A stretch of DNA of 19,416 bases from Candidatus Borrarchaeum weybense (GTDB lineage: Archaea > Asgardarchaeota > Sifarchaeia > Borrarchaeales > Borrarchaeaceae). A model generated the notes under the pieces. That model searched no databases. It had not been told where the DNA came from and worked only from the letters and a program-made list of their open reading frames with translations. The DNA lies in NCBI GenBank assembly GCA_019057385.1, contig JAHQJS010000001.1, forward strand, positions 139,425-158,840, given 5' to 3'. Shown piece by piece: positions 288 through 18,896 of the stretch (position 1 is its first letter; each line of letters starts with the position of its first letter). Both the position numbers and the translations under genes were made by a program.

Positions 288-1064
288 TTACCTTTTCTTC
301 AGAAAATTAATAACTTTCTTGGGATGCTCCTCAAAGTTTCTTCTCAAAATATTTTCAAGAGCGTAATTCCAATCTCTTTTTTGATCCGGATTCATCAAGT
401 GCCATGCAATAGCATCCGTCCTAAGTATTCCCCGACCATCCGCTCTACTTAAAATGAAATCTTCCAATGGAGCGTCATCAGGTAAGTTCTTCAAAGCTTT
501 TAACAGCTTCGGAGCACTAGCTGATCTAAATAGTACTCCACTGATTCCACCATAATCAATTTCAATAGTTTTGGGAAAGTTGTATCTAAAAAAGGCGTAC
601 TGATATTGACTAACGTTATCAGGAGGACCATCTACCGGAGTAGTAGAAAAATCAGGCTTTCCAATCTCATTGTTAGGTAAGAGAAACAAGCCACAGGCAA
701 AATTAACCGGACTATTATCCGCAGCCAAATTAAACTTCATGGTAGCTCTAATCTTCTCCAGGTAATCTGATTCCAATAATGCATCATCATCTACAAACAT
801 GAAGTATATTGGATCGCTAACTCCCTCCAGCAATTTCCTTCTGGCAGCGATAATTGGGATAGTTTTATTGCTTCTCAGATAAACTACCTCAACCCCTTTC
901 TCAGCTAAGATATCAAATACCATACGAACCACATAATTTGACGTGATGGGCTGTGCTCCATTATCAAGTATGGTTATTTTATCAGGAAGCAAGGTTTGAA
1001 ACGCCAAGGCTTGCAAACACAAACCAATCACCTCTTTCCTTCTCGTGGGTATCAATATCTGCAT
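288..1064 (-). CDS. Glycosyltransferase family 2 (GT-A fold)
   Basis: N-terminal ILIPT..R, CLQALAFQT, ILDNG, DxD-type motif MFVDDDALL, later ED motif (PLEDF) and WH. Confidence 0.8.
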   Translation of the reverse strand: MQILIPTRRKEVIGLCLQALAFQTLLPDKITILDNGAQPITSNYVVRMVFDILAEKGVEVVYLRSNKTIPIIAARRKLLEGVSDPIYFMFVDDDALLESDYLEKIRATMKFNLAADNSPVNFACGLFLLPNNEIGKPDFSTTPVDGPPDNVSQYQYAFFRYNFPKTIEIDYGGISGVLFRSASAPKLLKALKNLPDDAPLEDFILSRADGRGILRTDAIAWHLMNPDQKRDWNYALENILRRNFEEHPKKVINFLKKR

Positions 1065-1066
1065 GC

Positions 1067-1831
1067 TTATGCCCTCAAAGAATCAAAGTCAATAATTTTA
1101 TTCTCAATACTTTTAATATCTTTCAATTCACATTCCCAAATAACTAAAGTTTGATATCCATATTGTGTGAAGTGATCCACTCTCTCTTGCTCATGCTGCT
1201 CTTTAGAAATACCTGTAACTTCTTCAGAATGCCAGTAGTCGCCGAATAGTTCGATGATTTTCTTTTGTCCGTTGATGTTGATGAAGTCGGGGCATTTACC
1301 AGCAAGGATAAACTGCCCATCACCAACATACTTCCATTCATTAGGAAACAGTTTCTGGAGAAGTTTTGTCAGGAACTTTTCTGGTTTGTTCGGTTTAACT
1401 TTATTCCCAAGTAATGTAGCTCGAACATTATAACTTCTATTCACAGGATTTTGCCAGTATTTTATCTTCTCAATCCTCTTCCTTTCTTGAGCTCCTAAAC
1501 AATTTACACGAATCTTAGCAGAAGCGCTCATCTTATTTCTCACTTTGAGAGAGCTTAAACTGGCCATCATCACGATACTATGTTTAATATGTTCTTCCGG
1601 CCGAGACCATCTCTTCCTTTGACCAGCACTTGCTGCAGCACGATGTTCTGCAGAACGAGGAGGTAGAATTCTCCCCTTATTCTTTCCTATCATTGAAGCC
1701 CGATGGTTAGCACGATGTTCTGCAGAACGAGGAGGTTTCTTCTTTCCCTTCAAAAAGCTACTCTGCTTTGCCCTAACCTCAGGTGTCCTCTCGTATTTAC
1801 CTCTTAGCCCCCTCCAATCCTGAAGGTCCAA
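1067..1831 (-). CDS. Putative homing endonuclease: NUMOD3-like DNA-binding repeats plus a Vsr/DUF559-like PD-(D/E)xK nuclease domain
   Basis: Basic repeats PPRSAEHRA x2; C-terminal CPDFIN..KKIIELFGDYWH...GYQTLVIWECEL. Start uncertain (TTG inside the upstream ORF). Confidence 0.8.
   Translation of the reverse strand: MDLQDWRGLRGKYERTPEVRAKQSSFLKGKKKPPRSAEHRANHRASMIGKNKGRILPPRSAEHRAAASAGQRKRWSRPEEHIKHSIVMMASLSSLKVRNKMSASAKIRVNCLGAQERKRIEKIKYWQNPVNRSYNVRATLLGNKVKPNKPEKFLTKLLQKLFPNEWKYVGDGQFILAGKCPDFININGQKKIIELFGDYWHSEEVTGISKEQHEQERVDHFTQYGYQTLVIWECELKDIKSIENKIIDFDSLRA
1637..1736. repeat. 28-bp perfect direct repeat (AGCACGATGTTCTGCAGAACGAGGAGGT) at 1637-1664 and 1709-1736, period 72 bp
   Basis: Read directly; encodes the duplicated PPRSAEHRA motif. 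Confidence 0.95.
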
Positions 1832-2121
1832 TCACTCTCAGGCCAAAGTTCAAAATCTAAATCTTTGTCAAACGTCCCAGATAGAAACCCTTTTCCTTCT
1901 AACACAACTTCCCCTCCAGAAATCAAAATCCAATATGACATTTTTGGATGAGGTTTCAAAACTTCACGAATGCTATATTCATCAAGGAATGTCCCTCTTA
2001 TAGGCAATCTAAGAACGTTAAATTTACCGTGCACATATCCTTGAACATGTATGTCAGACACATTAACTATTCCAATAGATTCCTCTTTCAACTGAGCATA
2101 CTCATAAAACGGATCCTCCAT
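1804..2121 (-). CDS. Hypothetical protein
   Basis: 105-aa ORF, GGAGG Shine-Dalgarno upstream of the ATG, co-directional with neighbours. Confidence 0.7.
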   Translation of the reverse strand: MEDPFYEYAQLKEESIGIVNVSDIHVQGYVHGKFNVLRLPIRGTFLDEYSIREVLKPHPKMSYWILISGGEVVLEGKGFLSGTFDKDLDFELWPESDWTFRIGGG

Positions 2122-2166
2122 TTACATCCTCCAGTAACCTAACTACATTCCTCTACAACTTAGAAA

Positions 2167-3180
2167 CTATGAATCTCCATCACTTTGATGGGAAAAGTTT
2201 TTCTTTCCAAGTTCCGCCTGGTTTTCTAAGGCATATTTATTTGTTTCGATCATGTGATCCCAAGCGCACCCAGGACATCTGGCTATTACTTCTTTGAAAT
2301 TCTGATGTATCTCTCTTGGGTACAGTGGAATATCAAATATTGAATACGGATGAGATAGTGGACGATCTATACAAGCCATCAACGATCCATCAGGATTCAC
2401 AGCTGGGCAAGCCCATTCGCTGCAATGCCAATCCTGATGTATGCCCCACTTCGCCCAACTCTCAAAATATGCTTTTCCATTGTGAAGCATCAATTTATCA
2501 TAGTTATCTATAAACCATTGAGCAACTGCGGCTACCATCCATTCATCTTCTTCTCTAAAATCCAAACTCCTGTTGTTATCATCTATCGGACCTCTATACC
2601 ACCAATACATACTTTCTTCTGGCGGGCAAACATGAAAGAATGATAGAATACTCCAAATTTTTCTATCTGAAAAATACTTAACTATATCTGGAAGCAATCG
2701 AATATTTTCCCGAGTTATGGCCATGTTCGCAACCTTGTCACACTCCGGATAGTCCTCTAACAATTTCAATAGCAACTTATGACCAACATCACTTTTCAAA
2801 TCGTCATGGAATTTTGTGGTAGGTGTCAAGGTATTAACTGACGCGCTTATCCCATAAGGCTTGGCGTCAAGAATTCTTTCATAGTAAGTTCTATCCTTCA
2901 CCAATCGAACAGCATTAGTTATGATCGTATGAGGCATGTTGATATAGTTGAGATGCTTAACTAACTCGGGAAGATCTTCCCTAAGTGTTGGTTCTCCTCC
3001 GAAGAGAACTACAAAACCAACACCAAACTCTTTCATAATATCAAAAGCTGATATCCATTCTTGAGTATCCATCTCATAGGCTGATTGATAGTTAATAACA
3101 TTGCATCCTCTGCATCTAAGATTACATTTTCTAGTTAGAAAAATGCATGTCTTCTGCCAGTGCTTAAACAGATCGTACAT
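2167..3180 (-). CDS. Radical SAM protein with a C-terminal SPASM/twitch-like Cys cluster
   Basis: CNLRCRGC (CxxxCxxC), GGEPTLR, ITN; C-terminal C..WAC.AVNPDGSLMAC...CPGC. Start ATG 3180 or TTG 3186. Confidence 0.9.
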   Translation of the reverse strand: MYDLFKHWQKTCIFLTRKCNLRCRGCNVINYQSAYEMDTQEWISAFDIMKEFGVGFVVLFGGEPTLREDLPELVKHLNYINMPHTIITNAVRLVKDRTYYERILDAKPYGISASVNTLTPTTKFHDDLKSDVGHKLLLKLLEDYPECDKVANMAITRENIRLLPDIVKYFSDRKIWSILSFFHVCPPEESMYWWYRGPIDDNNRSLDFREEDEWMVAAVAQWFIDNYDKLMLHNGKAYFESWAKWGIHQDWHCSEWACPAVNPDGSLMACIDRPLSHPYSIFDIPLYPREIHQNFKEVIARCPGCAWDHMIETNKYALENQAELGKKNFSHQSDGDS

Positions 3181-3478
3181 TATCAACTCGCTTTCTTCTT
3201 CGCTTTTGCCTCTTCTTTTGTTCTTTACTAATTTTCAGATCTATATCAGATTCACAAACTATGAAAGATAAACCAGCAAGATGGTCAGTTTCATTGGCTA
3301 GCATTGCTTCAGAAACATCCTTTATATTTTTCAATCTTTTCCTTAAGCTAATGATGTGGCATAAATAAACATAGATAATAAATAAAGTCAAGAAGAAAGG
3401 AACAACTAATGATAAAGCAAGAGCTAAAAGCTTTAAGAATAAAAGCAGGCTTATTCCTTCAAACACTTGCATGGTCAT
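3164..3478 (-). CDS. Small membrane protein, paralog of 11264..11521
   Basis: Long hydrophobic N-terminus, then LRKRLKNI...LSFIVCESDIDL and a basic tail. Confidence 0.7.
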   Translation of the reverse strand: MTMQVFEGISLLLFLKLLALALSLVVPFFLTLFIIYVYLCHIISLRKRLKNIKDVSEAMLANETDHLAGLSFIVCESDIDLKISKEQKKRQKRRRKRVDNVRSV

Positions 3479-4439
3479 TTCCCAATTCTATAACTCTGTT
3501 GTTGTAGTCAACACACACATCCAAACAGTTTTCGCAACAGATAGGATCATCCAAACAGTTATGATTATTGAACCACTCGAGCCTTTCTTGCCGGACATTA
3601 TCACCAAGCTTTCCTATTGGAGCTCCTCGCTCTCTTAAATAGATAATACAAGGATAATGATAACCATTCTCAGCAGCCATGTCATCCAGAACTAATGGAC
3701 ACTGATCATTATCAGTTTTCGAAATACCTCTGATTGGTCTGCCCTTTTGAATGTTTCCAATCCTGTAATTAAGTATAGGATGACAAACCAAGATTTCCGG
3801 ATCTATAGTCAAAAGAGGTAACTGTTTGCTAACCTGTGCTGCTGGAATAATCCTGATATCTGCAACTCCAAGATTGTGAGCGAATTCAATTATTTCTTCC
3901 GCGTCATGAACGTTATCTTCAGTAAATACAACTCCCACCGTTACATATGTCCAATGAGAAAGTTTTCTGATGTTTGATACAACCTTATCCCAAACCGTAG
4001 CATTGTCAATTCCCGCCATTGCTTTTCCAGCTGAAACACAGCAAGCATCTAACGAAATGGAAAAATCATTAACTCCAGCATCAATAAGATCTAAATACAC
4101 TTCAAGGTCTGCCGAACCATTGGTAGAAATAGCGATTCTCTCAACTCCGTACATATCACATAGTCCAACGGCATCTCTAAGATGAGACCATAAAGTAGGC
4201 TCGCCACCAGAGAATCTTACATTTCGAAGGCCGTTCGTGATCCATAGATTTAGCACTTCCCAAGCTTCTTCTCTTGAAAGATCATAAAAATCTCTTTTTC
4301 TACAGTATGGACAATTGAAATTGCATCGAGAAGTGACAAGAAGTTCGCATCGCCAGAGAGGCGTTTCATGAGAACAATTAGCTGCCCTTTCATCCTCTAG
4401 AGTGTAAAATCCAATAGAATGTAGTTTATCTTTACTCAT
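3459..4439 (-). CDS. Radical SAM protein
   Basis: CNFNCPYC, RFSGGEPT, ISTNGS, SISLD; C-terminal CPL...YPC...C..DPICCENCLDVC. Start ATG 4439 or TTG 4457. Confidence 0.9.
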   Translation of the reverse strand: MSKDKLHSIGFYTLEDERAANCSHETPLWRCELLVTSRCNFNCPYCRKRDFYDLSREEAWEVLNLWITNGLRNVRFSGGEPTLWSHLRDAVGLCDMYGVERIAISTNGSADLEVYLDLIDAGVNDFSISLDACCVSAGKAMAGIDNATVWDKVVSNIRKLSHWTYVTVGVVFTEDNVHDAEEIIEFAHNLGVADIRIIPAAQVSKQLPLLTIDPEILVCHPILNYRIGNIQKGRPIRGISKTDNDQCPLVLDDMAAENGYHYPCIIYLRERGAPIGKLGDNVRQERLEWFNNHNCLDDPICCENCLDVCVDYNNRVIELGNDHASV

Positions 4440-4449
4440 CTTACTTTCA

Positions 4450-5304
4450 TTATACAAGACTCAGTTGGGAAATCAAACTATTAAATCCCAACTCAGTGAA
4501 AATTTCCAACAACTTTCCTCTATCATACTCCTTTATATTTAACTCATCAAAGTCAACTTTGATAGGAACACAGCAGTCGATAGTTGTTAACTTCTTGTTT
4601 AAGAGAATCTGATCTTTGAATTCCAGCAGCTTTTCCTTCTTCTTGCCTTTTATATCATCTATATGCTCAAACAATCCCTCAACTGAATCATATTTTCGTA
4701 TCCAATCAGCCGCAGTTTTAAATCCAATACTCGGAACACCTGGAATATTATCTGTAGAATCTCCTTGTAGAGCTAAGACATCAATGATATGCCGCGGCCA
4801 TATTCCATGCTTCTCTGCTAAGTCATCGATGGTAGTATACTTTCCTGTTTTCATATCAAGCATTCGAGCATTAAAGGATAGCAACTGTTGCATATCCTTA
4901 TCTTTAGAGCAGATGAAAACTTCATGCCCATCCTGCTGGGCTAATCTAGATACTGTTCCGATGATATCATCAGCTTCATATCCATCCATTCGAATTATAG
5001 GAATATTCATAGCTTCAAGTATCTGCTCAATCCTATCCCTTTGAATAATAAAATCACTGGATGGAAGTGAACGATTAGCCTTATACTCACTACTTAGATC
5101 ACATCGGAAAGTTTTGGTTCTCCCCTCCATAGCAACAGCCAGCATATCCGGGTCTTCCTCCCGGATTAACTTTAGCAAGGCAGTAGTAAAAATATATGTC
5201 GCCTTAGTTGGTTCTCCAGAAGGGCTGGTCAGATCGATTTGAAGAGGAGCATGATATGCTCTATGAATATGCAGATAACCATCTATTATAAAAAGACTCT
5301 TCAT
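4450..5304 (-). CDS. Stand-alone 5'-3' exonuclease / flap endonuclease (DNA polymerase I N-terminal domain type)
   Basis: IIDG, YKANR, GYEADDIIGT, SKDKD, and H3TH motif LQGDSTDNIPGVPSIGFKTA; ends at ELGFNSL with no polymerase domain. Confidence 0.92.
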   Translation of the reverse strand: MKSLFIIDGYLHIHRAYHAPLQIDLTSPSGEPTKATYIFTTALLKLIREEDPDMLAVAMEGRTKTFRCDLSSEYKANRSLPSSDFIIQRDRIEQILEAMNIPIIRMDGYEADDIIGTVSRLAQQDGHEVFICSKDKDMQQLLSFNARMLDMKTGKYTTIDDLAEKHGIWPRHIIDVLALQGDSTDNIPGVPSIGFKTAADWIRKYDSVEGLFEHIDDIKGKKKEKLLEFKDQILLNKKLTTIDCCVPIKVDFDELNIKEYDRGKLLEIFTELGFNSLISQLSLV

Positions 5305-6981: not shown

Positions 6982-8889
6982 TTAACTTAACAAATTCAAT
7001 ATACTGTCTTTTTCTATTTTTTCCAGAGACAAGTTGATATCGCATTCCTCTTCGGTATCCACTATCTCTGCACCAGATTGCAAAAGCACTTCATTCAAAC
7101 TAATCGTGTCTATGTAGAAATCCACAAGATATCTTCGAGCATGATTAATCATTTTTGATGCTCCAGAGGTAATGCTCGTTCCTATAAGGCTCTCTGAGAA
7201 GTAAAATCGAACATCTCCAATGGCTGACGTCACTATACCCAATATCTTTTGTTTGTCATCTATTTTTGTTCCCACAGAGCAGACGATATCATTTGGATCA
7301 ATAACATAATTCTTCCCAAAGCCGCTAGGACGATGCTTTGCCACAACGATTTCAAAAGGTACTTCTTTTGAATCTGAATAGTAATTAAAATAGTTGACCA
7401 TAAATATACCAGGTGAGTCCAAGCATTGGCCAGCCAGGTAGAACAACTCTGAAGCACCTTTTGGCCTTGGAGCATTCGTGACATCTCCTGAGAACAGAAT
7501 TTTTCTCGAGTCTGATCTATATGAACCATCCCAGCCATATTTCATTCCATCTGCAGAAATCAAGGATAAATCCAAATCGACTCTTGACCTCTCTCCACGT
7601 CGACCTTCAAGGTTGAACCAGTGAACTCCAAATACCATATCCTGGTCTATTGTCAAATATGATCCAGAAGGTAAATTTCCAGTGAACTGCTTCTCTGTAG
7701 CAGGAAGAGCATATACAACATTCTTTGGAAGGTAGATTTTCTTCCCGCTAACATTCTTGCTGACATCCTGCTCAATATGCGAAAGGACTACTCTAAGCAC
7801 TTCATCTGACTTAGCCTTTACGTATCCATCATAACTAACTTCCGTAGCCCAGCTTCTCCCATTTCTTACCTTGTAGAGAGTTGAAAAAACATCTTTTGTT
7901 CTGAATTTCAAAGCATAGGCTAACCGAATTTTTCGGAAGGTATTTGCTTTGCTTAAAGCTTTGCTTAACTTGCCAAATGTCAAAAGTTCTCTCTTGTTAA
8001 TCAGAGAGGTAACTTCATTAAGATAATCTGAATGCATTGGCACGTGATGTCTTTTGGATAGCTTGCTGATTCTGTTTATGAGAGCGTTCATTCGGCCATC
8101 GGATCTAAATGCCAGGAATAGTGGCTTAAATCTATTGAAGATTTCCGACAAGCTCGTTAAACCATAACGCTTCTCATACTTCGTAAGTAAAAGAAGAGCC
8201 GGAAGTTTATCCGCTGCAGCAACTCTTCCTATAGTCGCCTTGCTTTTAATCAGCAAAGTTTCGTTGATGGTTCGGTAAAGTAAGAACCTCAGAAACTCGG
8301 AAGGATCTTTTGGTAAGATATCCAGATAATCATACAGCTTAATCCGAATTTCTTTATTCTTTACTTTTTCCAAATCCTCAAGGGATATTCCAACAAAGAT
8401 ACATATCTCAACCAGATAGTCAAATGTATCTACTTTCAAAGCTACTCCAGAAGAAATCAGCTTTATTACCTTCTCCTTTAGCTCTTCTTTGGTATAGCCT
8501 TTGATTACAACCAGATTCATCCTATCCAATTTTACCTCTGGAACATCAAGCTGTTCATTTGGAATATATACCGAATCTTTATCGTAGACCCCCAATGCTT
8601 CAAAGCCATAGGTAGTGAAATAATGCAGTATCTGCTCCAGTACCAACTGAACAATACTTGCCTCCTTCACTTTCTTCCAGGATTTGTGAAAAGAGTTGTT
8701 TAGTTGCTCGGCCGTTCGTCCAATGCTTTCAGCTATCTTAAGCAGCTCTTGCTCTGAATAGTTTGATATAACTTCTGAAGAGAATACAAACCCCCTCTGA
8801 ACAGTTGCTTCCAGCAAAGTACGACTTGGTTCTTTCCTGCTCTTGTTCTTTACAGGCAATGCTTTGAAAAGTTTGATTGTTGCTTCCAT
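6982..8889 (-). CDS. 635-aa protein: large basic helical N-terminal region plus TerD-like C-terminal domain
   Basis: C-terminal FGVHW...RVDLDLS...GWD...FSGDVTNAP..GASE matches the TerD/TerZ DLDLS / SGD / GxxE pattern; GAGG SD upstream. Confidence 0.7.
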   Translation of the reverse strand: MEATIKLFKALPVKNKSRKEPSRTLLEATVQRGFVFSSEVISNYSEQELLKIAESIGRTAEQLNNSFHKSWKKVKEASIVQLVLEQILHYFTTYGFEALGVYDKDSVYIPNEQLDVPEVKLDRMNLVVIKGYTKEELKEKVIKLISSGVALKVDTFDYLVEICIFVGISLEDLEKVKNKEIRIKLYDYLDILPKDPSEFLRFLLYRTINETLLIKSKATIGRVAAADKLPALLLLTKYEKRYGLTSLSEIFNRFKPLFLAFRSDGRMNALINRISKLSKRHHVPMHSDYLNEVTSLINKRELLTFGKLSKALSKANTFRKIRLAYALKFRTKDVFSTLYKVRNGRSWATEVSYDGYVKAKSDEVLRVVLSHIEQDVSKNVSGKKIYLPKNVVYALPATEKQFTGNLPSGSYLTIDQDMVFGVHWFNLEGRRGERSRVDLDLSLISADGMKYGWDGSYRSDSRKILFSGDVTNAPRPKGASELFYLAGQCLDSPGIFMVNYFNYYSDSKEVPFEIVVAKHRPSGFGKNYVIDPNDIVCSVGTKIDDKQKILGIVTSAIGDVRFYFSESLIGTSITSGASKMINHARRYLVDFYIDTISLNEVLLQSGAEIVDTEEECDINLSLEKIEKDSILNLLS

Positions 8890-8909
8890 GTTAACCCTCT
8901 ATAAAAAAG

Positions 8910-8964
8910 GCGGCGGGAGGTATCATTTGCCCAATGCATATAATTTAGGAACCTCCTTTGCCGC
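8910..8964 (-). ncRNA. Structured RNA unit 1 (candidate ncRNA or cis element)
   Basis: Minus strand: GCGGC AAA GGAGGU UCCUA-N23-U ACCUCC C GCCGC followed by CUUUUUU; same architecture as unit 2 with compensated stems. Confidence 0.7.
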
Positions 8965-8975
8965 AATATTTCAAA

Positions 8976-9064
8976 GGGAGATGAAAGGTATTTTTCATGG
9001 TGATGGCCTTGCGTATTACCGCGTAGGCCATCAAAAATTTTAATAGGAACCTTTTTTATCTCCC
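8976..9064 (-). ncRNA. Structured RNA unit 2 (candidate ncRNA or cis element) with an extra 9-bp internal hairpin
   Basis: Minus strand: GGGAGAU AAA AAAGGU UCCUA...UGAUGGCCU-N15-AGGCCAUCA...U ACCUUU C AUCUCCC followed by UUU. Confidence 0.7.
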
Positions 9065-9076
9065 ATCACATATATA

Positions 9077-9082
9077 ATTATA
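9077..9082 (-). promoter_or_regulatory. Putative -10 box (TATAAT) for the RNA units and the TerD-like cassette
   Basis: Perfect TATAAT 12 nt upstream of unit 2 in an AT-rich intergenic gap; no convincing -35 at 17-nt spacing. Confidence 0.5.
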
Positions 9083-9196: not shown

Positions 9197-9679
9197 TTAC
9201 ATAGCCCTTGGTCTTAAACTCAGCCACTCTTTCCAATCCCCTCTATTTGGAATAGGCCTCTCCAGGTCAACAAGACCTAAAGTGTATTCTTCGCCATTCT
9301 CGACGCCTTTTCTTGGGCATTCTCCAAATATCGTACCATGAGCGCCGGCAGTAATAAACTTATGTACCCGCTCATCATTGTAGCCTGCTGCCTTCATCTG
9401 GTGGATAAAGTCCAGCAACTCTGCATTCAACCCTCTCTCAAGCAGGCGTGATAAGTTGAATAGGTCTCGAATATGCTGAATGACTTCCTTTTCATCAGAC
9501 ATATCAATTTCTGCTGCTCCTCTTTTCCAAGGTTCGGTGCTGATTAGGTTCTCAGCTCCACAATTCTTGCAAGGTGCATACTTAATCTTCTGAGTACCGC
9601 TACATACCGTCAACACGTTGACCTTTTTGTAATTGCACTTGCATTTTATTGTTTCGGGCTCTTTTTTAAGTTTGTCCAT
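9197..9679 (-). CDS. Hypothetical protein with N-terminal Zn-ribbon-like Cys pairs
   Basis: CKC...CKNC; GAGGAGG SD. Confidence 0.75.
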   Translation of the reverse strand: MDKLKKEPETIKCKCNYKKVNVLTVCSGTQKIKYAPCKNCGAENLISTEPWKRGAAEIDMSDEKEVIQHIRDLFNLSRLLERGLNAELLDFIHQMKAAGYNDERVHKFITAGAHGTIFGECPRKGVENGEEYTLGLVDLERPIPNRGDWKEWLSLRPRAM

Positions 9680-11264: not shown

Positions 11265-11521
11265 TACTTTCTCCTTTTCACTAAGCTAAGATCAGACTCG
11301 CAAACAATAAAAGCTAGAGCTCCTTTTTCTGCTGGCATTGTTCCATCGTCGATTGCTTGCTCAGCCATTTTGTGAATATTTTCCAGCCTTCTTCTTAACC
11401 TGTTATGTCTTTTCAATAATGAACTGCCGGTTAATAAAAGAGCCGAGATCATTAGCACAAGTATAAAAATACATAAATATCCAAACAATGGAATTATCTT
11501 TCCTCCTTCGCTCCAGGCCAT
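11264..11521 (-). CDS. Small membrane protein, paralog of 3164..3478
   Basis: Hydrophobic helix, then LRRRLENI...LAFIVCESDLSL. Confidence 0.7.
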   Translation of the reverse strand: MAWSEGGKIIPLFGYLCIFILVLMISALLLTGSSLLKRHNRLRRRLENIHKMAEQAIDDGTMPAEKGALAFIVCESDLSLVKRRK

Positions 11522-12273
11522 AAGATTTTATGGAGCTGCAAGCTAAACTGAACCTTTACCTTATCCCTTATCATCATCTCAACAAGTTGCTTTGGCCATT
11601 CCATGTTAATCTTCGGTTCTTGGCCTCCAAGTTGAGAACACTCTCCACATAAATGTCCTTGAACGCAAAATTCGCCATGGCCTAAAGTTCTTCCACAACC
11701 CAACTTCTGTTCTAGAGTAGCATAGATATAAGTTATAACTGGACTAAAAACTATTTTAGCATCCCAAGAAGGATGATAATCAAGTATTTCTTTAGCAAAA
11801 ACATAGTCCTTCCTATCGGCGATAACAAATTTTATAATATCTACATCTCTCATCCTGCGGAGAGCTTCAAGATTCAACTGTTTGTGCATCCCTGACGATG
11901 GTGTTTTGCAATCCATCACATATCGTATATCACGGCTGAAGTATATCGGCACAATCGAACCATTCGTTTCAATGGACACATCACCTCGCAGTGCTAAAAA
12001 TCTACACAGCTCATATACTGCTTCCATCTGGAGCAGAGGCTCACCGCCTGTAATCGTGACTTTTGGAAAATGAACTTTCTCAAGCACCTCAGGTATAGTC
12101 ATCCAATTCTCAGGTTTGTTCTCTTGAGAATACTTCGTATCACAATAACCACAGTGGAGGTTGCAACCTTTCAATCGAATAAAAGTGGCGAGTTGTCCAG
12201 CCCCATCAAAAGCGTTGACTTCGCCATCTATGCTATCGAATATCGCTTGAACATTCAACTTGATCTCGTTCAT
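11494..12273 (-). CDS. queE: 7-carboxy-7-deazaguanine synthase QueE (radical SAM)
   Basis: IFDSIDGE, FIRLKGCNLHCGYCDT, ITGGEPLLQ, IETNGS, MDCKTPSSG, KFVI, QLHKILW. Start moved to ATG 12273 (GGAGAGG SD). Confidence 0.9.
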   Translation of the reverse strand: MNEIKLNVQAIFDSIDGEVNAFDGAGQLATFIRLKGCNLHCGYCDTKYSQENKPENWMTIPEVLEKVHFPKVTITGGEPLLQMEAVYELCRFLALRGDVSIETNGSIVPIYFSRDIRYVMDCKTPSSGMHKQLNLEALRRMRDVDIIKFVIADRKDYVFAKEILDYHPSWDAKIVFSPVITYIYATLEQKLGCGRTLGHGEFCVQGHLCGECSQLGGQEPKINMEWPKQLVEMMIRDKVKVQFSLQLHKILWPGAKEER

Positions 12274-12559
12274 CCTCTCCTCCAAAATTTGATAATACCC
12301 CCAGAGCAATTTTATCCATATCATCTTTGCTAACACAAACTGGCCAGCCATCCTGGCCATTATGATGTGCTCCGAACATATCAATACAAAAATCTTTTTG
12401 ATATGGATGACCAGAAACTATCTGGTCAATAGTAAACTGGATAGGCCACCCAAAGCAAACAACAATTCTATCAACCATAATATGAATGGTAACAGTTTTT
12501 TCAAAAACATTTCCTTTAGAATCAAATGCTTCAACCTTCATCAGTTCTATTTTCTTCAT
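12233..12559 (-). CDS. Hypothetical protein
   Basis: 108-aa ORF with AAGGAG SD. Confidence 0.7.
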   Translation of the reverse strand: MKKIELMKVEAFDSKGNVFEKTVTIHIMVDRIVVCFGWPIQFTIDQIVSGHPYQKDFCIDMFGAHHNGQDGWPVCVSKDDMDKIALGVLSNFGGEDERDQVECSSDIR

Positions 12560-13971: not shown

Positions 13972-14162
13972 TTTTTTCTCCGGAATAGTTTAGTTCTTTT
14001 ACAATTTTCACACTTAACACTCGACCTTCTTTTTTTAACATATTTCTTATCTATCTCAGAGAGAAAACACAAACCACAAGCAGCATAGATAATACAAGGA
14101 TCAAGTTTAAGCTCTCCAGCGTAGAGATGTGTTTTCAAATCCTTACTCTTTTTCATTCTCAA
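13968..14162 (-). CDS. Small Cys/Lys-rich hypothetical protein, possible Zn finger
   Basis: H...ACG...VKCENCKR; ATGA overlap with tatA. Confidence 0.65.
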   Translation of the reverse strand: MRMKKSKDLKTHLYAGELKLDPCIIYAACGLCFLSEIDKKYVKKRRSSVKCENCKRTKLFRRKK

Positions 14163-14835
14163 CTATCCTTATCAAAGGATCTACAACTGAGCAAATATTC
14201 CAATAAGATGGGAGGATATCATATCTCCAACCCTCTCCCTTTATCAACCAAGCTCCATTCTTGCAGATATCAGGAAGATCAGTCGCCCAATTCTTACCAA
14301 TTCTATGTAGCATCTCATGAACTTCTGAACTGTGTTTATTCATAAGCTCGTTATGTGAGAAGAAGTTTCTGGCGTACATGCTAAGAGAATTCCTTTCCCA
14401 ATCTTTTGCTCTCCATAAAAAGTAATTCGCCGCTTCCTCCTTGGGTATGTTAAAAACTCGTGAATCAAAAATACCTTGCCCATAAGGAAAAATCTGATTG
14501 AATTTCACAGACATAAGAGCTGCGGACAGGCTGGCCATCTTTAGGATATTGTAGTCAAACCAACCCTGAGTATCCAACTTTTCATAATCAGTTAAAAGGA
14601 AGCTCACTTCGTCCGACTGAACATAGGCAACTTTAAATCCCTGAATTTCATCGGCAACATCATCTGCTGCCTTCCTCATGCTTGTAATAAAATTGTGGTC
14701 GAATGGCTTCTTAGTTCCTCTAAGAAGAGTATGAAATGCTCTTCCATCAACTCGGATAATAACGGGTGTTCTTTTAGTCAGATAATACCTGGTAACACTT
14801 TCATACGTCTTCATTCTGTCGCCGAGATTTTTCAT
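14143..14835 (-). CDS. Thg1-like protein (tRNA-His guanylyltransferase / 3'-5' polymerase family)
   Basis: GDRMKTYE, IIRVDGRAFH, YVQSDEVS, FDSRVF, NYFLWR..D..RNS. Confidence 0.93.
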   Translation of the reverse strand: MKNLGDRMKTYESVTRYYLTKRTPVIIRVDGRAFHTLLRGTKKPFDHNFITSMRKAADDVADEIQGFKVAYVQSDEVSFLLTDYEKLDTQGWFDYNILKMASLSAALMSVKFNQIFPYGQGIFDSRVFNIPKEEAANYFLWRAKDWERNSLSMYARNFFSHNELMNKHSSEVHEMLHRIGKNWATDLPDICKNGAWLIKGEGWRYDILPSYWNICSVVDPLIRIVENEKE

Positions 14836-15191: not shown

Positions 15192-15478
15192 TAACTCTCC
15201 TTGCTCAGAGAAATTCCAAAAATTTGGATTGATGGAGACATTTCCTGCAATAACAAATCAACGTTATCAATAACAAATCCTTTAATCCCTGGAGAATGAT
15301 ATCTACGATGAAGAAACTCCTCAAATGTTAACATCTTAGGAGCATTCTCTTTGAGTAAATGTCGGATTCTACCTTCCTCAACCCTTCCTGCTACTACAAG
15401 ATAGAAATCATTATCTTTCGCATATTTTGCCAAGAGTGTCGTTTTTCCAGCTCCTCTTGGCTCACATACTATCATCAT
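15191..15478 (-). CDS. Very small P-loop protein
   Basis: Walker A-like PRGAGKTT and Walker B-like FVIDN in only 95 aa. Confidence 0.7.
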   Translation of the reverse strand: MMIVCEPRGAGKTTLLAKYAKDNDFYLVVAGRVEEGRIRHLLKENAPKMLTFEEFLHRRYHSPGIKGFVIDNVDLLLQEMSPSIQIFGISLSKES

Positions 15479-16809
15479 AATTCATCCTCCACATCTCCAA
15501 TTCCTTCATCTTTCATCTTACTCTCACGAAGAAGGAATTCTTCAGATTTGTGTTTTAAGCAAGTCCAATTTCCGGTACAATCTTTGAACCAAACAACTAC
15601 TCCCTCAAGAAGAGTATTTGGATCAAGATTAGATTGACCTTCACAGTAACCAAAATCCTTAACCATCATATCCCAATATACAAACTTATTTTCTGGTTCT
15701 GCTTCTCCAAGTTCATACTTGGTTATCAAATAAGGCTTTTCTAAACCCAACTCCTCAGCCCTACGATACACTTGCTCACGATCTAAATCTACACGATAGC
15801 CATCTTCAGTCGTAAGGGTAACGCGATATAGCATTACCTTATACTCGCCTCCAAAACCATCGCGAGTGCAACCATAGGGATAATGCTTCTGAATCCATCT
15901 TCCACTTTGTTGATATCCATAAATTTCGTAATACAACTCTTCACCTTTATGCAAATGAGGTGCGAGTTTTTCTTCTATTTCTCTGCGTTCTTTTCCCATG
16001 TGTCCTTGAGTTCCATCTCTTCGTCGAGTTCCACTCACGACTTTCCAAAAGATTTTAGTTTTTGGTTTCCAGAGTTGTAGTAGGCCTCTTTTCTCGACAT
16101 GTCGAACATTGGCTATTCTTCCTGATGTTCCGTGAACTTTTTCTTCTATGTATATCATTCCCGGGATGATTCTATGAGCCTCACGCATCAGTTGCTTAGT
16201 ATCCCAATGCTTCCAAAACGAATCCGTTGTTATTCTACTTTGAAAAAGAGATAATAGCTTCAGATAAAACTTTTTCAGAAGTCTCAATTTCCTCTTCTTT
16301 TTCTTTGATCCACCTAGATACACTCCTTTGGATTTTTCAACTATATATTTATGACAAACCTCAGCACTCACCTCACTCCAACCGATATGAGTAAATTCGT
16401 CTCCGACTTTCAAACTATATGAAGGAAAAGTACGTTGAACATTATCAACTAATCCAACACACACTGCAAAATGATCTATCACCTCCAGACCAACCACGAA
16501 TCCATTTGATATCTCATCTCGAAGTTTGATTGTTCTAATTCGCCCGTTCTTACCAAAATAACCTTTAACTCTTGGATCGCTATTCATCTCGGGGTTTTCA
16601 TACAAATTGTTGAAGTGAAGAAATTCAGGAGATAGAGCTAAGTTGGAGTCAAAGTAAACAACAACATCTCCATCTTTAGCATCTAATCCAACAATAATTT
16701 GTGTACCCAGCACAGTTGCTAACTTAATCCGGTCAGCATTTGGATGCTTTCGAACATTAGCCAAAGTAGTTACAATTGCGTTATTCGTTTCTGATTTAGT
16801 TAGTTTCAT
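15475..16809 (-). CDS. RNA ligase, DRB0094/Rnl2-like, with N-terminal OB-type domain
   Basis: KHPNADRIKL, LRDEISNG; nucleotidyltransferase motifs EEKVHGTS (I), YEIYG (III), EGVVV (IV), LKHKSEEFL (V). Confidence 0.85.
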   Translation of the reverse strand: MKLTKSETNNAIVTTLANVRKHPNADRIKLATVLGTQIIVGLDAKDGDVVVYFDSNLALSPEFLHFNNLYENPEMNSDPRVKGYFGKNGRIRTIKLRDEISNGFVVGLEVIDHFAVCVGLVDNVQRTFPSYSLKVGDEFTHIGWSEVSAEVCHKYIVEKSKGVYLGGSKKKKRKLRLLKKFYLKLLSLFQSRITTDSFWKHWDTKQLMREAHRIIPGMIYIEEKVHGTSGRIANVRHVEKRGLLQLWKPKTKIFWKVVSGTRRRDGTQGHMGKERREIEEKLAPHLHKGEELYYEIYGYQQSGRWIQKHYPYGCTRDGFGGEYKVMLYRVTLTTEDGYRVDLDREQVYRRAEELGLEKPYLITKYELGEAEPENKFVYWDMMVKDFGYCEGQSNLDPNTLLEGVVVWFKDCTGNWTCLKHKSEEFLLRESKMKDEGIGDVEDEL

Positions 16810-18314: not shown

Positions 18315-18896
18315 CTAAAAACTTAAAAATTCTTGTCGCATGGCTTTATCCTCCCTCATCTTTCCCAGCAGACAACTGGTTATCATCTTACTTCCGGGCT
18401 TAAAAGCTCCTCTACATGCCACGCAGTTATGTTGAGCCTGGATGACAACTCCTACGCCAAGAGGTTTTACATGCTTCTTGATAGCCTCTGCTACTTGCCG
18501 AGTAAGTCTCTCTTGGATTTGCAATCGCTTTGCATAAACATCTACTATCCTAGCAAGCTTTGATAAACCTACTACTCTTTTATCCGGGACATATCCAACT
18601 TTAGCTATCCCAGTAAACTCTACCATATGATGTATGCAATGTGAGGTAAACGAGATATCCTTGAGCACTATCATTTCGTCACACTTCTCAGCAAAATCTA
18701 TGGATAAGATTTTCTTGATATCTTCCTCAGACACAAAATTTCCCGCACCAAATTCTTCAAGCCAAGCTCTGGCCACTCTCTCGGGCGTGCCCTTAAGATG
18801 TTGATCCTTCAAATCTAGATCCATAGCCTCCAAAAACATTTGAATGCCTTGCTCCATCTTTTTCTTTTTACTATCATATTCACTACTCTCTAACAT
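18315..18896 (-). CDS. folE: GTP cyclohydrolase I
   Basis: TPERVARAW, DEMIV, SHCIHH, GYVP...GLSKLARIVD..AKRLQIQERLT, H.C...RG, R.EFL. Confidence 0.95.
   Translation of the reverse strand: MLESSEYDSKKKKMEQGIQMFLEAMDLDLKDQHLKGTPERVARAWLEEFGAGNFVSEEDIKKILSIDFAEKCDEMIVLKDISFTSHCIHHMVEFTGIAKVGYVPDKRVVGLSKLARIVDVYAKRLQIQERLTRQVAEAIKKHVKPLGVGVVIQAQHNCVACRGAFKPGSKMITSCLLGKMREDKAMRQEFLSF

What the first reader, a model, noticed from the sequence alone, without database searches (positions are those of the whole stretch)
8903..9082. Two tandem RNA units with the same fold and compensated stems, in front of a TerD-like gene: candidate Y-RNA-like ncRNA/RNP system
Seen: this non-coding gap holds two units, 11 nt apart. 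Unit 2 (9064-8976): GGGAGAU AAA AAAGGU UCCUA [loop with a 9-bp hairpin] AU ACCUUU C AUCUCCC UUU. Unit 1 (8964-8910): GCGGC AAA GGAGGU UCCUA [loop] AU ACCUCC C GCCGC C UUUUUU. The outer stems differ in sequence yet pair perfectly; the inner stems differ at two pairs (AA/UU vs GG/CC) and still pair. The AAA/C internal loop, AGGU/ACCU and unpaired UCCUA are invariant, while the distal loop is free in length. Conserved loops with covarying stems indicate selection on RNA structure, typical of a protein-binding site. A TATAAT lies 12 nt upstream. Established: Y RNAs pair their 5' and 3' ends into a bulged stem bound by Ro60/Rsr (TROVE), have variable distal loops, and in bacteria are often encoded in tandem beside rsr. 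Inference: these units are ligands of the adjacent 635-aa helical+TerD protein, as processed small RNAs or an autoregulatory leader. They do not match the Y RNA consensus I know, and I recognise no named family.
Basis: partly seen in the sequence, partly recalled or inferred. Interest (0 to 1): 0.9.

Follow-up and report, generated by a model that had tools for sequence, protein, structure and literature searches.

The report
Phage handle RNAs with TerD-domain partner
Two small folded RNAs in front of an unstudied phage gene belong to a large, undescribed RNA family that always travels with that gene in phages and bacteria, often among tRNA genes or RNA-repair genes, and so probably forms an RNA-protein particle built on the plan of the Ro60/Y-RNA particle without being related to it.

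Summary
Both units (9064-8976 and 8964-8910, minus strand) fold as outer stem P1, an A-N-A/C internal loop, a 6-bp stem P2, a UCCUA bulge and a variable distal part.

A covariance model built from relatives finds 134 such units in about 500 kb of phage and bacterial DNA. Every one I placed lies on the strand of a homologue of the 635-aa gene or of the surrounding tRNA genes; most sit directly upstream of the gene. 97.4% of stem cells pair and 10 of 11 pairs show compensatory change. Rfam 15 holds no such family.

The protein has a TerD-fold C-terminal domain. Its N-terminal domain matches no named fold, and neither sequence nor fold searches gave any sign of TROVE.

Some units lie downstream of the gene or kilobases away inside phage tRNA arrays. 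7 of 134 carry a T-loop signature, and the two tested score on Rfam YrlA below its threshold. In Chryseobacterium the pair sits in a WYL-RtcB-RlaP operon. In one planctomycete it neighbours a true Ro60 with its own YrlA-like RNAs.

Best reading, at 0.6: trans-acting partner RNAs of the protein, a functional analogue of Ro60/Y RNA and not a member of that family. Binding and expression are untested.

This scan reached the same reading on other genomes (for example e1-5467744 and e1-5165873).

The parts
9077..9082 (-). -10-like hexamer TATAAT, 12 nt upstream of unit 2. It may be the promoter of the RNA-gene transcript.
   Evidence: Read from the sequence. The simple scan reports no full sigma-70 match.
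8976..9064 (-). Handle RNA unit 2: 7-bp P1, AAA/C internal loop, 6-bp P2, UCCUAU bulge and a long distal hairpin (9033-9001).
   Evidence: MFE fold -34.5 kcal/mol, z = -5.6. Covariance model R1 scores 43.4 bits, E 2.6e-8.
8910..8964 (-). Handle RNA unit 1: 5-bp P1, AAA/C internal loop, 6-bp P2, UCCUAA bulge and a short P3 capped by an AUUGG loop.
   Evidence: MFE fold -22.7 kcal/mol, z = -2.8. R1 scores 51 bits, E 2.6e-10. An AUUGG-type apical loop (ATTGG, TTTGG, AATGG or ACTGG) occurs in 35 of 108 short units.
8903..8909 (-). C plus U6 tract after unit 1. It looks like a terminator tail but is not conserved in relatives.
   Evidence: Read from the sequence. The tails after the last unit in 26 related loci mostly lack a U tract. 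The scan calls no terminator.
8895..8900 (-). Shine-Dalgarno-like AGAGGG, 5 nt before the AUG. It lies outside the folded unit.
   Evidence: Read from the sequence.
6982..8889 (-). 635-aa partner protein (P0001). The N-terminal domain (about residues 1-382, mostly helical) matches no named fold. The C-terminal domain (about 413-592) has the TerD fold.
   Evidence: AlphaFold2 model, pLDDT 89.8. TerD: Foldseek probability 1.0 to 2kxt and 3ibz; VIA Z 10.1, rmsd 3.2, 149 residues aligned to 2qz7_B. No Pfam or PHROG hit. More than 2000 homologues.
14143..14835 (-). Context: Thg1-like 3'-5' nucleotidyltransferase on the same strand. Homologues lie in the Chryseobacterium operons that hold the RNA-protein pair.
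   Evidence: Pfam PF04446, 90 bits. tblastn finds 27-30% identity in L317, L321, L333 and L354.
15475..16809 (-). Context: RNA-ligase-like protein.
   Evidence: Pfam PHA02142 OB-fold domain 32.1 bits, above its cut-off. RNA_ligase PF09414 21.1 bits, below its cut-off.

Best explanation
The two units are genes, or processed segments, of small structured RNAs from an undescribed family.

Anatomy. Each RNA has a fixed 'handle': P1, an A-N-A/C internal loop, P2 closed by G-C and U-A pairs, and a UUCCU-containing bulge. The distal module is free to vary. It can be a short hairpin, often with an AUUGG loop, a long stable hairpin, or in some relatives a tRNA-like body with a T arm, a closed acceptor stem and a D arm.

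Proposed mechanism (inferred). The handle is the binding site of the adjacent 635-aa helical+TerD protein. The resulting particle presents the distal module to other factors in tRNA or RNA damage control. The module could tether or act as a decoy for tRNA-directed enzymes, in the way Y RNAs work with Ro60.

In this phage the two RNAs are probably co-transcribed with the gene from a promoter just upstream of unit 2. The gene-proximal unit may also let the protein limit its own translation.

Shown here: the fold, the covariation, the strand, the strict RNA-gene linkage across phages and bacteria, the tRNA-array and RtcB contexts, the TerD fold, and the lack of any detectable TROVE.

Inferred only: protein binding, processing into discrete RNAs, and the biological role.
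For: 1. Structure.
- RNAalifold on a plain MAFFT alignment recovers P1 and P2.
- In 37 units, 98.5% of cells pair and 10 of 11 pairs have compensatory changes. Slid controls give 34-60%.
- In 134 model-aligned units, 97.4% of cells pair and 373 cells carry double changes. Slid controls give 38-53%.
- There are 34 G.U cells. These would be A.C mismatches on the other strand.

2. Conserved unpaired nucleotides.
- A-N-A in 128 of 134 units.
- The opposing C in 131 of 134.
- UCCUA in 118 of 134.

3. Linkage in both directions.
- All 74 hits in 25 sources (198 kb, both strands) lie on the gene's strand beside the gene.
- All 65 hits in 32 bacterial or MAG loci do the same.
- In the reverse test, 24 of 35 stem-supported pattern hits have the gene in the locus on the same strand. 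None of 85 stem-less chance hits do.
- The only complete 'orphan' genome encodes a homologue elsewhere.

4. The units are not merely a leader.
- Units lie downstream of the gene in L122, L138, L291 and S-CRM01, and 1.3 kb downstream in Phass-1.
- Units also lie between tRNA genes (S-CBWM1, L197, L199, L221, L269), spaced like tRNA genes and on their strand.

5. tRNA-like modules.
- S-CRM01 L150 3622-3736 scores 35.9 bits on Rfam YrlA over the full model, E 1.5e-5.
- L139 scores 19.7 bits.
- A Chryseobacterium tRNA-shaped RNA carries a circularly permuted handle at the anticodon position. It scores 49.8 bits on the tRNA model with a 45-nt insert.

6. Context.
- Chryseobacterium loci have the order WYL, RtcB, RNAs, homologue, then RlaP and an R2K ATP-grasp gene further downstream.
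- The window itself holds Thg1-like and RNA-ligase-like genes.
- The Bythopirellula locus has a true Ro60 with YrlA-like RNAs 1.8 kb from the homologue and its own handle unit. Each protein keeps its own RNA type.
Against: - There is no expression or binding evidence of any kind.
- In this window both units lie in the 5' leader, 20 nt from the start codon at the nearest. A purely cis-acting role fits the local picture equally well.
- Neither of the window's units has a tRNA-like module.
- The protein's N-terminal domain has no recognised RNA-binding fold.
- TerD domains are known as Ca-binding modules, not RNA binders.
- The units used for the first alignment were picked with a pairing filter, so part of the pairing percentage is circular. 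The model search, the slid controls and RNAalifold reduce this problem but do not remove it.
- The Ro60 adjacency is seen in one locus only.
Confidence: 0.6

Rival explanations
1. The units are a purely cis-acting leader. They would be tandem operator sites in the 5' UTR through which the encoded protein, or another factor or ligand, controls translation or transcription of the 635-aa gene. No trans-acting RNA product would exist.
For: In most loci the array ends 12-30 nt before the start codon, on the gene's strand, with the Shine-Dalgarno sequence just after the last unit. In the window a -10-like hexamer precedes unit 2 and a U6 tract follows unit 1, which would allow attenuation.
Against: Units also lie downstream of the gene, 1.3 kb away in Phass-1, or embedded in tRNA arrays kilobases from it. 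Copy number varies from 1 to 7. Some units carry whole tRNA-like bodies, and one form is permuted into a tRNA-shaped RNA. The U tract is not conserved. In Chryseobacterium the RNAs sit in the middle of an operon after RtcB.
Confidence: 0.2
2. The units are generic RNA hairpins: intrinsic terminators, transcript-stabilising stems or RNase processing signals between genes, with no specific partner.
For: Unit 1 is a GC-closed stem followed by C and U6. In phages the units lie between tRNA genes, where processing signals are expected.
Against: Near-invariant unpaired nucleotides (A-N-A/C and UUCCU) are not a feature of terminators. The U tract is absent after most units. The scan calls no terminator. 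The linkage to a single protein family across phyla is strict.
Confidence: 0.05
3. The units form a guide-RNA array in the manner of TIGR-Tas stem-loop arrays or CRISPR. The variable distal loops would be guides that direct the adjacent protein to nucleic-acid targets.
For: The units are tandem, processed-looking stem-loops with variable interiors next to one protein, and they are common in phages. TIGR stem-loop arrays look superficially similar (PMC12045711).
Against: The protein has no Nop domain and no nuclease domain. No paired box C/D motifs or dual 8-12-nt spacers are present. The distal parts are mostly self-paired hairpins, carry a recurrent AUUGG loop, or are tRNA-like. Arrays are short, at 1-7 units.
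Confidence: 0.05
4. The element acts at the DNA level, as iterons or an origin, a recombination site, or a mobile repeat, rather than as RNA.
For: It is a set of tandem imperfect repeats near replication genes: a primase and a 5'-3' exonuclease lie in the window.
Against: Stem sequences differ between copies in one locus yet stay complementary. 34 G.U pairs exist on one strand only. All 134 units I placed share the strand of the gene or of the tRNA array. The genome holds only two copies.
Confidence: 0.02

Closest known systems
Ro60 (Rsr; TROVE + vWA) with Y RNAs, especially YrlA/YrlB. Sources: Rfam RF02553; the Salmonella rsr-yrlBA-rtcBA operon; Chen et al. 2014, PMC4201824; Hughes et al. 2020, PMC7790460.
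   Same: - Small RNAs are encoded in tandem beside one large protein.
- A conserved basal stem with an asymmetric internal loop is formed by the 5' and 3' ends, with a free distal module.
- Some members carry a T arm, a closed acceptor stem and a D arm in the same permuted order as YrlA.
- The pair lies next to RtcB and other RNA-repair genes and occurs in phages.
- The protein is a large helical region plus a C-terminal domain of a metal-binding fold class.
   Different: - The handle sequence and loops do not match the YrlA model. The window's units give no hit at E<=10.
- The protein shows no TROVE or vWA by Pfam, hhalign or fold search.
- The C-terminal domain is TerD, not vWA.
- Copy number reaches 7.
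- Many units are plain hairpins of about 50 nt.
- In one genome both systems are present side by side, each with its own RNA type.
TIGR-Tas stem-loop arrays (Faure et al. 2025, PMC12045711)
   Same: Phage-borne tandem arrays of stem-loop units with variable interiors lie beside a single associated protein. In TIGR these units are processed into individual small RNAs.
   Different: The protein has no Nop domain, the RNAs have no box C/D pairs or dual spacers, and there is no nuclease. Here the conserved elements are an A-N-A/C loop and a UUCCU bulge.
Small stable RNAs of unknown function encoded in phage tRNA clusters, such as T4 species 1 and 2 RNAs (rnaC, rnaD). This comparison is from my own knowledge and was not checked here.
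   Same: Non-tRNA structured RNAs are interspersed with phage tRNA genes on the same strand.
   Different: No sequence or structure comparison was made. tblastn of the phage collection found the partner protein in only three phages (five records), none of them T4.
TerD-family proteins (PF02342; PDB 2kxt, 3ibz, 2qz7)
   Same: The C-terminal 180 residues adopt the TerD beta-sandwich. A DxDxS segment and an SGD segment lie where TerD has its Ca sites.
   Different: The Pfam TerD model does not match any of 49 family members at E<=1. The domain is fused to a 380-residue N-terminal domain that matches no named fold. There is no Ter operon context.

Membership tests
Y RNA / YrlA (Rfam RF02553) | The RNA matches the YrlA covariance model at or above its gathering score of 69 bits. 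| tested here: not met
   The window's units give no YrlA hit even at E<=10. Relatives with tRNA-like inserts reach only 19.7 bits (L139) and 35.9 bits (S-CRM01), carried mainly by the tRNA-like core. True YrlA-like RNAs beside a real Ro60 in L286 score 52.1 and 36.5 bits.
Y RNA / YrlA (Rfam RF02553) | The RNA is encoded next to a Ro60/TROVE gene. | tested here: not met
   No TROVE (PF05731) was found in the window's own assembly or in S-CRM01, S-CBWM1 or Phass-1. The positive controls rang. The neighbouring gene is the helical+TerD protein.
Y RNA / YrlA (Rfam RF02553) | Modular plan: the 5' and 3' ends form a conserved stem with an internal loop, the distal module is variable, and at least one RNA per locus has a tRNA-like domain. 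| tested here: inconclusive
   The plan holds for the family as a whole. Only 7 of 134 units carry a T-loop module, and neither of the window's units does.
Y RNA / YrlA (Rfam RF02553) | The RNA is bound by its partner protein in vivo. | not testable with these tools
   No RNA-protein complex predictor or RNA-seq was available.
Ro60 / TROVE protein family (PF05731) | A TROVE domain is detectable by sequence profile. | tested here: not met
   Pfam gives no hit for P0001 at E<=0.01. None of 49 family members hits TROVE at E<=1. hhalign of the family profile against a TROVE protein gives probability 0.1%. A profile search of PDB sequences found nothing.
Ro60 / TROVE protein family (PF05731) | The fold is a HEAT-repeat ring plus a vWA domain. 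| tested here: inconclusive
   No Ro60 chain appears among the best matches for the full model or the N-domain model. The best N-domain Z is 7.5, over one helical segment only. The C-terminal domain is TerD (Z 10.1), not vWA.
TerD family (PF02342) | The TerD beta-sandwich fold. | tested here: met
   Foldseek probability 1.0 to 2kxt, 3ibz and 2qng, with target TM about 0.55. VIA Z 10.1, rmsd 3.2, 149 residues aligned to 2qz7_B, and Z 9.4 to 2kxt.
TerD family (PF02342) | A match to the Pfam TerD sequence model. | tested here: not met
   No TerD hit in any of 49 members at E<=1.
TIGR-Tas | A Nop-domain protein beside arrays with box C/D motifs flanking dual 8-12-nt spacers. | tested here: not met
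   No Nop or other Pfam domain. The units' conserved elements are the A-N-A/C loop and the UUCCU bulge, and the distal parts are mostly self-paired. The criteria are taken from PMC12045711.
Intrinsic (Rho-independent) terminator | A GC-rich hairpin immediately followed by a U tract, conserved in relatives. | tested here: not met
   Unit 1 has a U6 tail, but the scan calls no terminator. Most relatives lack a U tract after their units.
Any Rfam 15 family | A covariance-model match at the gathering score. | tested here: not met
   No match in the window. Only chance-level hits with E>3 in the region. Only tRNAs in 20 related loci.

The most novel reading that the evidence does not exclude
This is a second, evolutionarily independent Ro60/Y-RNA-like particle. 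A helical+TerD protein binds a family of 'handle' RNAs that display hairpins or tRNA bodies. Flavobacteria would use it inside WYL/RtcB/RlaP RNA-repair operons. Large phages would use it, within or beside their tRNA arrays, to protect, repair or decoy tRNAs against host anticodon nucleases.
Probability: 0.5. Interest if true: 0.9.

Novelty: new variant of a known kind. Interest (0 to 1): 0.8.

Why it matters
Ro60 and its Y RNAs are the only known system in which a scaffold protein uses modular tRNA-mimicking RNAs in RNA surveillance, and their bacterial function is still unclear. Here a different protein (TerD fold plus a domain matching no named fold) and a different RNA handle show the same logic.

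The pair has over 2000 protein homologues. It has cultivable carriers (Chryseobacterium species and the cyanophages S-CRM01 and S-CBWM1), lies in RtcB/RlaP/Thg1 contexts, and sits inside phage tRNA arrays.

If the RNP is real, three things follow:
- It gives a tractable second example for asking what such particles do.
- It assigns a function to a very large family of 'hypothetical' phage proteins.
- It adds a new RNA family to the inventory. That family currently causes mis-annotated small ORFs and odd tRNA calls in phage genomes.

Tried and rejected
- Rfam. The gathering scan of the window, the E<=10 scan of the region and the scan of 20 related loci gave only chance hits (SNORA79, manA-II, mir-4847) and tRNAs.
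- DNA similarity to the phage collection found nothing.
- The first pattern scan, AGGTTCCTA..ATACCT in viral contigs, returned almost only chance matches. One real locus (L117) came out of it.
- A loosened script scan gave many false positives and was replaced by a site-anchored test.
- The pattern AWANNNNGTTCCT in the window's own genome was no more frequent than its control and was useless for finding permuted handles.
- The N-terminal domain folded alone had lower confidence (pLDDT 78). VIA-wide and ESM-atlas searches with it returned only generic helical segments or the protein's own family. No Ro60 chain appeared in any fold list.
- A profile search of PDB sequences found nothing.
- Complex prediction was not used. 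It handles protein-protein pairs only, and two copies of the protein exceed its size limit.
- Literature searches found no description of this RNA or of a TerD-domain protein in RNA-repair operons. Two papers were not held and could not be checked: Burroughs & Aravind 2016 (NAR) and the 2020 Annual Review on bacterial Ro60.
- I considered a pseudoknot between the UUCCU bulge and the AUUGG apical loops and dropped it, because the complementarity is not consistent.
- I considered reading 'U-UCCU-A' as an anticodon-loop mimic. It has no test here and is not claimed.

Full report
**1. The observation**

On the minus strand, the 307-nt gap between the ORF ending at 9197 and the 635-aa ORF (8889-6982) holds two units exactly as described.
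- Unit 2 spans 9064-8976. P1 is GGGAGAU/AUCUCCC, the internal loop is AAA opposite C, P2 is AAAGGU/ACCUUU, then comes UCCUAU and a 9-bp distal hairpin.
- Unit 1 spans 8964-8910. P1 is GCGGC/GCCGC, the internal loop is AAA opposite C, P2 is GGAGGU/ACCUCC, then comes UCCUAA and a short hairpin capped by AUUGG.
- The units are 11 nt apart. TATAAT (9082-9077) lies 12 nt upstream of unit 2. C plus U6 follows unit 1, and the start codon is 20 nt after P1.

Minimum-free-energy folds reproduce these helices, with z = -5.6 and -2.8. The composite motif is absent from 200 shuffles of the window. The simple scans call no sigma-70 promoter and no terminator here.

**2. Is it a known RNA?**

Rfam 15 gives nothing at gathering scores. 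At E<=10 in the region it gives only chance hits. In 20 related loci only tRNAs reach threshold.

**3. The gene and its relatives**

The window is part of a 179-kb phage contig binned into a 4.18-Mb assembly. It encodes a 5'-3' exonuclease, a primase, radical-SAM and QueE-like enzymes, FolE, a Thg1-like enzyme and an RNA-ligase-like protein.

The 635-aa protein has no Pfam or PHROG match. It has more than 2000 homologues in metagenomes, all unnamed.

An AlphaFold2 model from 49 homologues is confident (pLDDT 89.8).
- Residues about 413-592 have the TerD fold. Foldseek gives probability 1.0 to 2kxt and 3ibz. VIA gives Z 10.1, rmsd 3.2, with 149 residues aligned to 2qz7_B.
- The N-terminal 380 residues match nothing convincingly. 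The best Z is 7.5, over one helical segment, and only the protein's own family appears in the ESM atlas.
- No evidence for TROVE was found. Pfam is silent for all 49 members. hhalign against a TROVE protein gives 0.1% probability. No Ro60 chain appears in the fold lists.

**4. The RNA is a family, and it travels with the gene**

In 26 viral contigs that encode a homologue, a script found 1-7 tandem copies of the same architecture directly upstream in nearly all of them.

A MAFFT alignment of 37 short units (A4) was folded by RNAalifold into exactly P1 and P2. On it, 98.5% of cells pair and 10 of 11 pairs show compensatory change. Slid controls give 34-60%.

Because the units were chosen with a pairing filter, I built a covariance model (R1) and searched with it.
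- All 74 hits in 198 kb lie on the gene's strand beside the gene.
- All 65 hits in 351 kb of bacterial or MAG loci do the same.
- Only the two known units are found in the window's own genome.

On 134 model-aligned units, 97.4% of cells pair and 373 cells carry double changes. Slid controls give 38-53%. There are 34 G.U cells, which fixes the folding strand.

The unpaired nucleotides are nearly invariant:
- A-N-A in 128 of 134 units.
- The opposing C in 131 of 134.
- UCCUA in 118 of 134.

The reverse test also holds. Of 120 viral loci matching a 14-base handle pattern, 35 have stems at the site. Of those 35, 24 have the gene in the locus on the same strand. None of the 85 stem-less chance matches do.

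**5. Not just a leader**

Units occur immediately downstream of the gene in L122, L138, L291 and S-CRM01. In Phass-1 they lie 1.3 kb downstream.

The 'orphan' units lie inside phage tRNA arrays, on the tRNA strand, spaced like tRNA genes. Examples are L197, L199, L221 and L269, and S-CBWM1 between tRNA-Pro and tRNA-Glu. The one complete orphan genome (424 kb) does encode a homologue.

In the cultured cyanophages S-CRM01 and S-CBWM1 the gene itself sits in the middle of the tRNA array.

The U tract after the last unit is not conserved.

**6. tRNA-like modules**

7 of 134 units carry a T-loop signature in the distal part.
- The S-CRM01 unit at L150 3622-3736 aligns to the whole Rfam YrlA model at 35.9 bits, E 1.5e-5, against a gathering score of 69.
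- L139 2869-2981 scores 19.7 bits.
- In both, the order is T arm, loop-closed acceptor stem, D arm, as in YrlA.

In Chryseobacterium, a tRNA-shaped RNA (L308 4681-4790) scores 49.8 bits on the Rfam tRNA model. Its 45-nt insert at the anticodon position is the same handle, circularly permuted: P2 and P1 are capped by a loop. The handle therefore occupies the place of the anticodon arm.

**7. Bacterial context**

The gene family is chromosomal in about 45 Chryseobacterium species and in other Flavobacteriia, Pirellulaceae, Erysipelotrichaceae and others.

In Chryseobacterium the order is: WYL regulator (divergent), RtcB, tRNA-shaped RNA, three handle units, the homologue, then RlaP and an R2K ATP-grasp gene further downstream. 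Some loci add a homologue of the window's Thg1-like protein. RlaP is a nucleotidyltransferase implicated in tRNA repair (bioRxiv 10.64898/2025.12.29.696909). This mirrors the Salmonella rsr-yrlBA-rtcBA operon (PMC7790460).

In Bythopirellula (L286) the homologue and its handle unit lie 1.8 kb from a true Ro60 (TROVE + vWA_Ro60). Two YrlA-like RNAs (52.1 and 36.5 bits) lie upstream of that Ro60 gene. The two proteins each keep their own RNA type. This adjacency is seen only once.

**8. Interpretation**

The fold, the covariation, the strand, the two-way linkage and the contexts are shown. Three points are inferred:
- The handle is the binding site of the helical+TerD protein.
- The RNAs are processed, trans-acting partners.
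- The particle acts in tRNA or RNA damage control, by tethering or acting as a decoy for tRNA-directed enzymes.

I put this reading at 0.6. A purely cis-acting leader (0.2) fits the window locally but not the family. Terminators or processing hairpins, guide arrays of the TIGR kind (PMC12045711) and DNA-level elements are each contradicted by specific tests listed above.

**9. Comparison and novelty**

The system works like Ro60/Y RNA but fails the membership tests on both the RNA and the protein side.

No paper in the held library describes it. Burroughs & Aravind 2016 could not be read.

Earlier follow-ups of this same scan reached the same reading on other genomes. I re-derived the main claims here independently. 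I add the Ro60 co-occurrence in L286 and the details of this window.

I class it as a new variant of a known kind, with interest 0.8.

Noticed in passing
L308 4681-4790 (Chryseobacterium sp. chromosome NZ_CP180265): A tRNA-shaped RNA (Rfam tRNA, 49.8 bits). A 45-nt insert at its anticodon position is the handle in circularly permuted form. ARAGORN does not call it. It lies between RtcB and the three handle units.
   Followed up: partly
L286 8681-11117 (Bythopirellula sp. chromosome OZ245849): A bona fide Ro60 (TROVE + vWA_Ro60) with two YrlA-like RNAs (52.1 and 36.5 bits) and two tRNAs lies 1.8 kb from the helical+TerD homologue. A PcfJ-like gene sits between them. Seen in this one locus only.
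   Followed up: partly
L150 3791-3937 (S-CRM01 g173c) and L152 6995-7294 (Phass-1 CDS): Annotated small 'hypothetical protein' ORFs overlap arrays of handle RNA units. They are probably mis-annotations.
   Followed up: no
L197 3605-3720 and L212 620-735: ARAGORN calls a tRNA-Leu(caa) in L197 and a tRNA of undetermined type in L212, each nested inside a handle unit. These are units whose distal module is a near-complete tRNA body.
   Followed up: no
window 14143-14835 (-) and L317, L321, L333, L354: The window's Thg1-like protein (PF04446) has 27-30% identical homologues at the distal end of the Chryseobacterium WYL-RtcB-RlaP operons that hold the RNA-protein pair.
   Followed up: partly
window 288-4457, 11494-12384, 18315-18896 (-): Three radical-SAM enzymes (one QueE-like), a GT2 glycosyltransferase and GTP cyclohydrolase I lie on one strand. 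Together they suggest a 7-deazaguanine-type DNA or RNA modification pathway.
   Followed up: no
L366 3785-3930 (G000:C1:161784-161929, - strand): Only two tRNA genes (His, Trp) lie about 13 kb upstream on the same strand. Unlike many relatives, in this phage the pair is not embedded in a tRNA array.
   Followed up: yes
L275-L284, L302 (contigs labelled as archaeal MAGs: Pacearchaeota, Promethearchaeota, Nanoarchaeota and others): The closest genome-collection relatives (45-52% identity) sit on short contigs binned into archaeal MAGs. They are likely phage contigs mis-binned, as in the window's own assembly. L275 also carries RtcB and RlaP.
   Followed up: no
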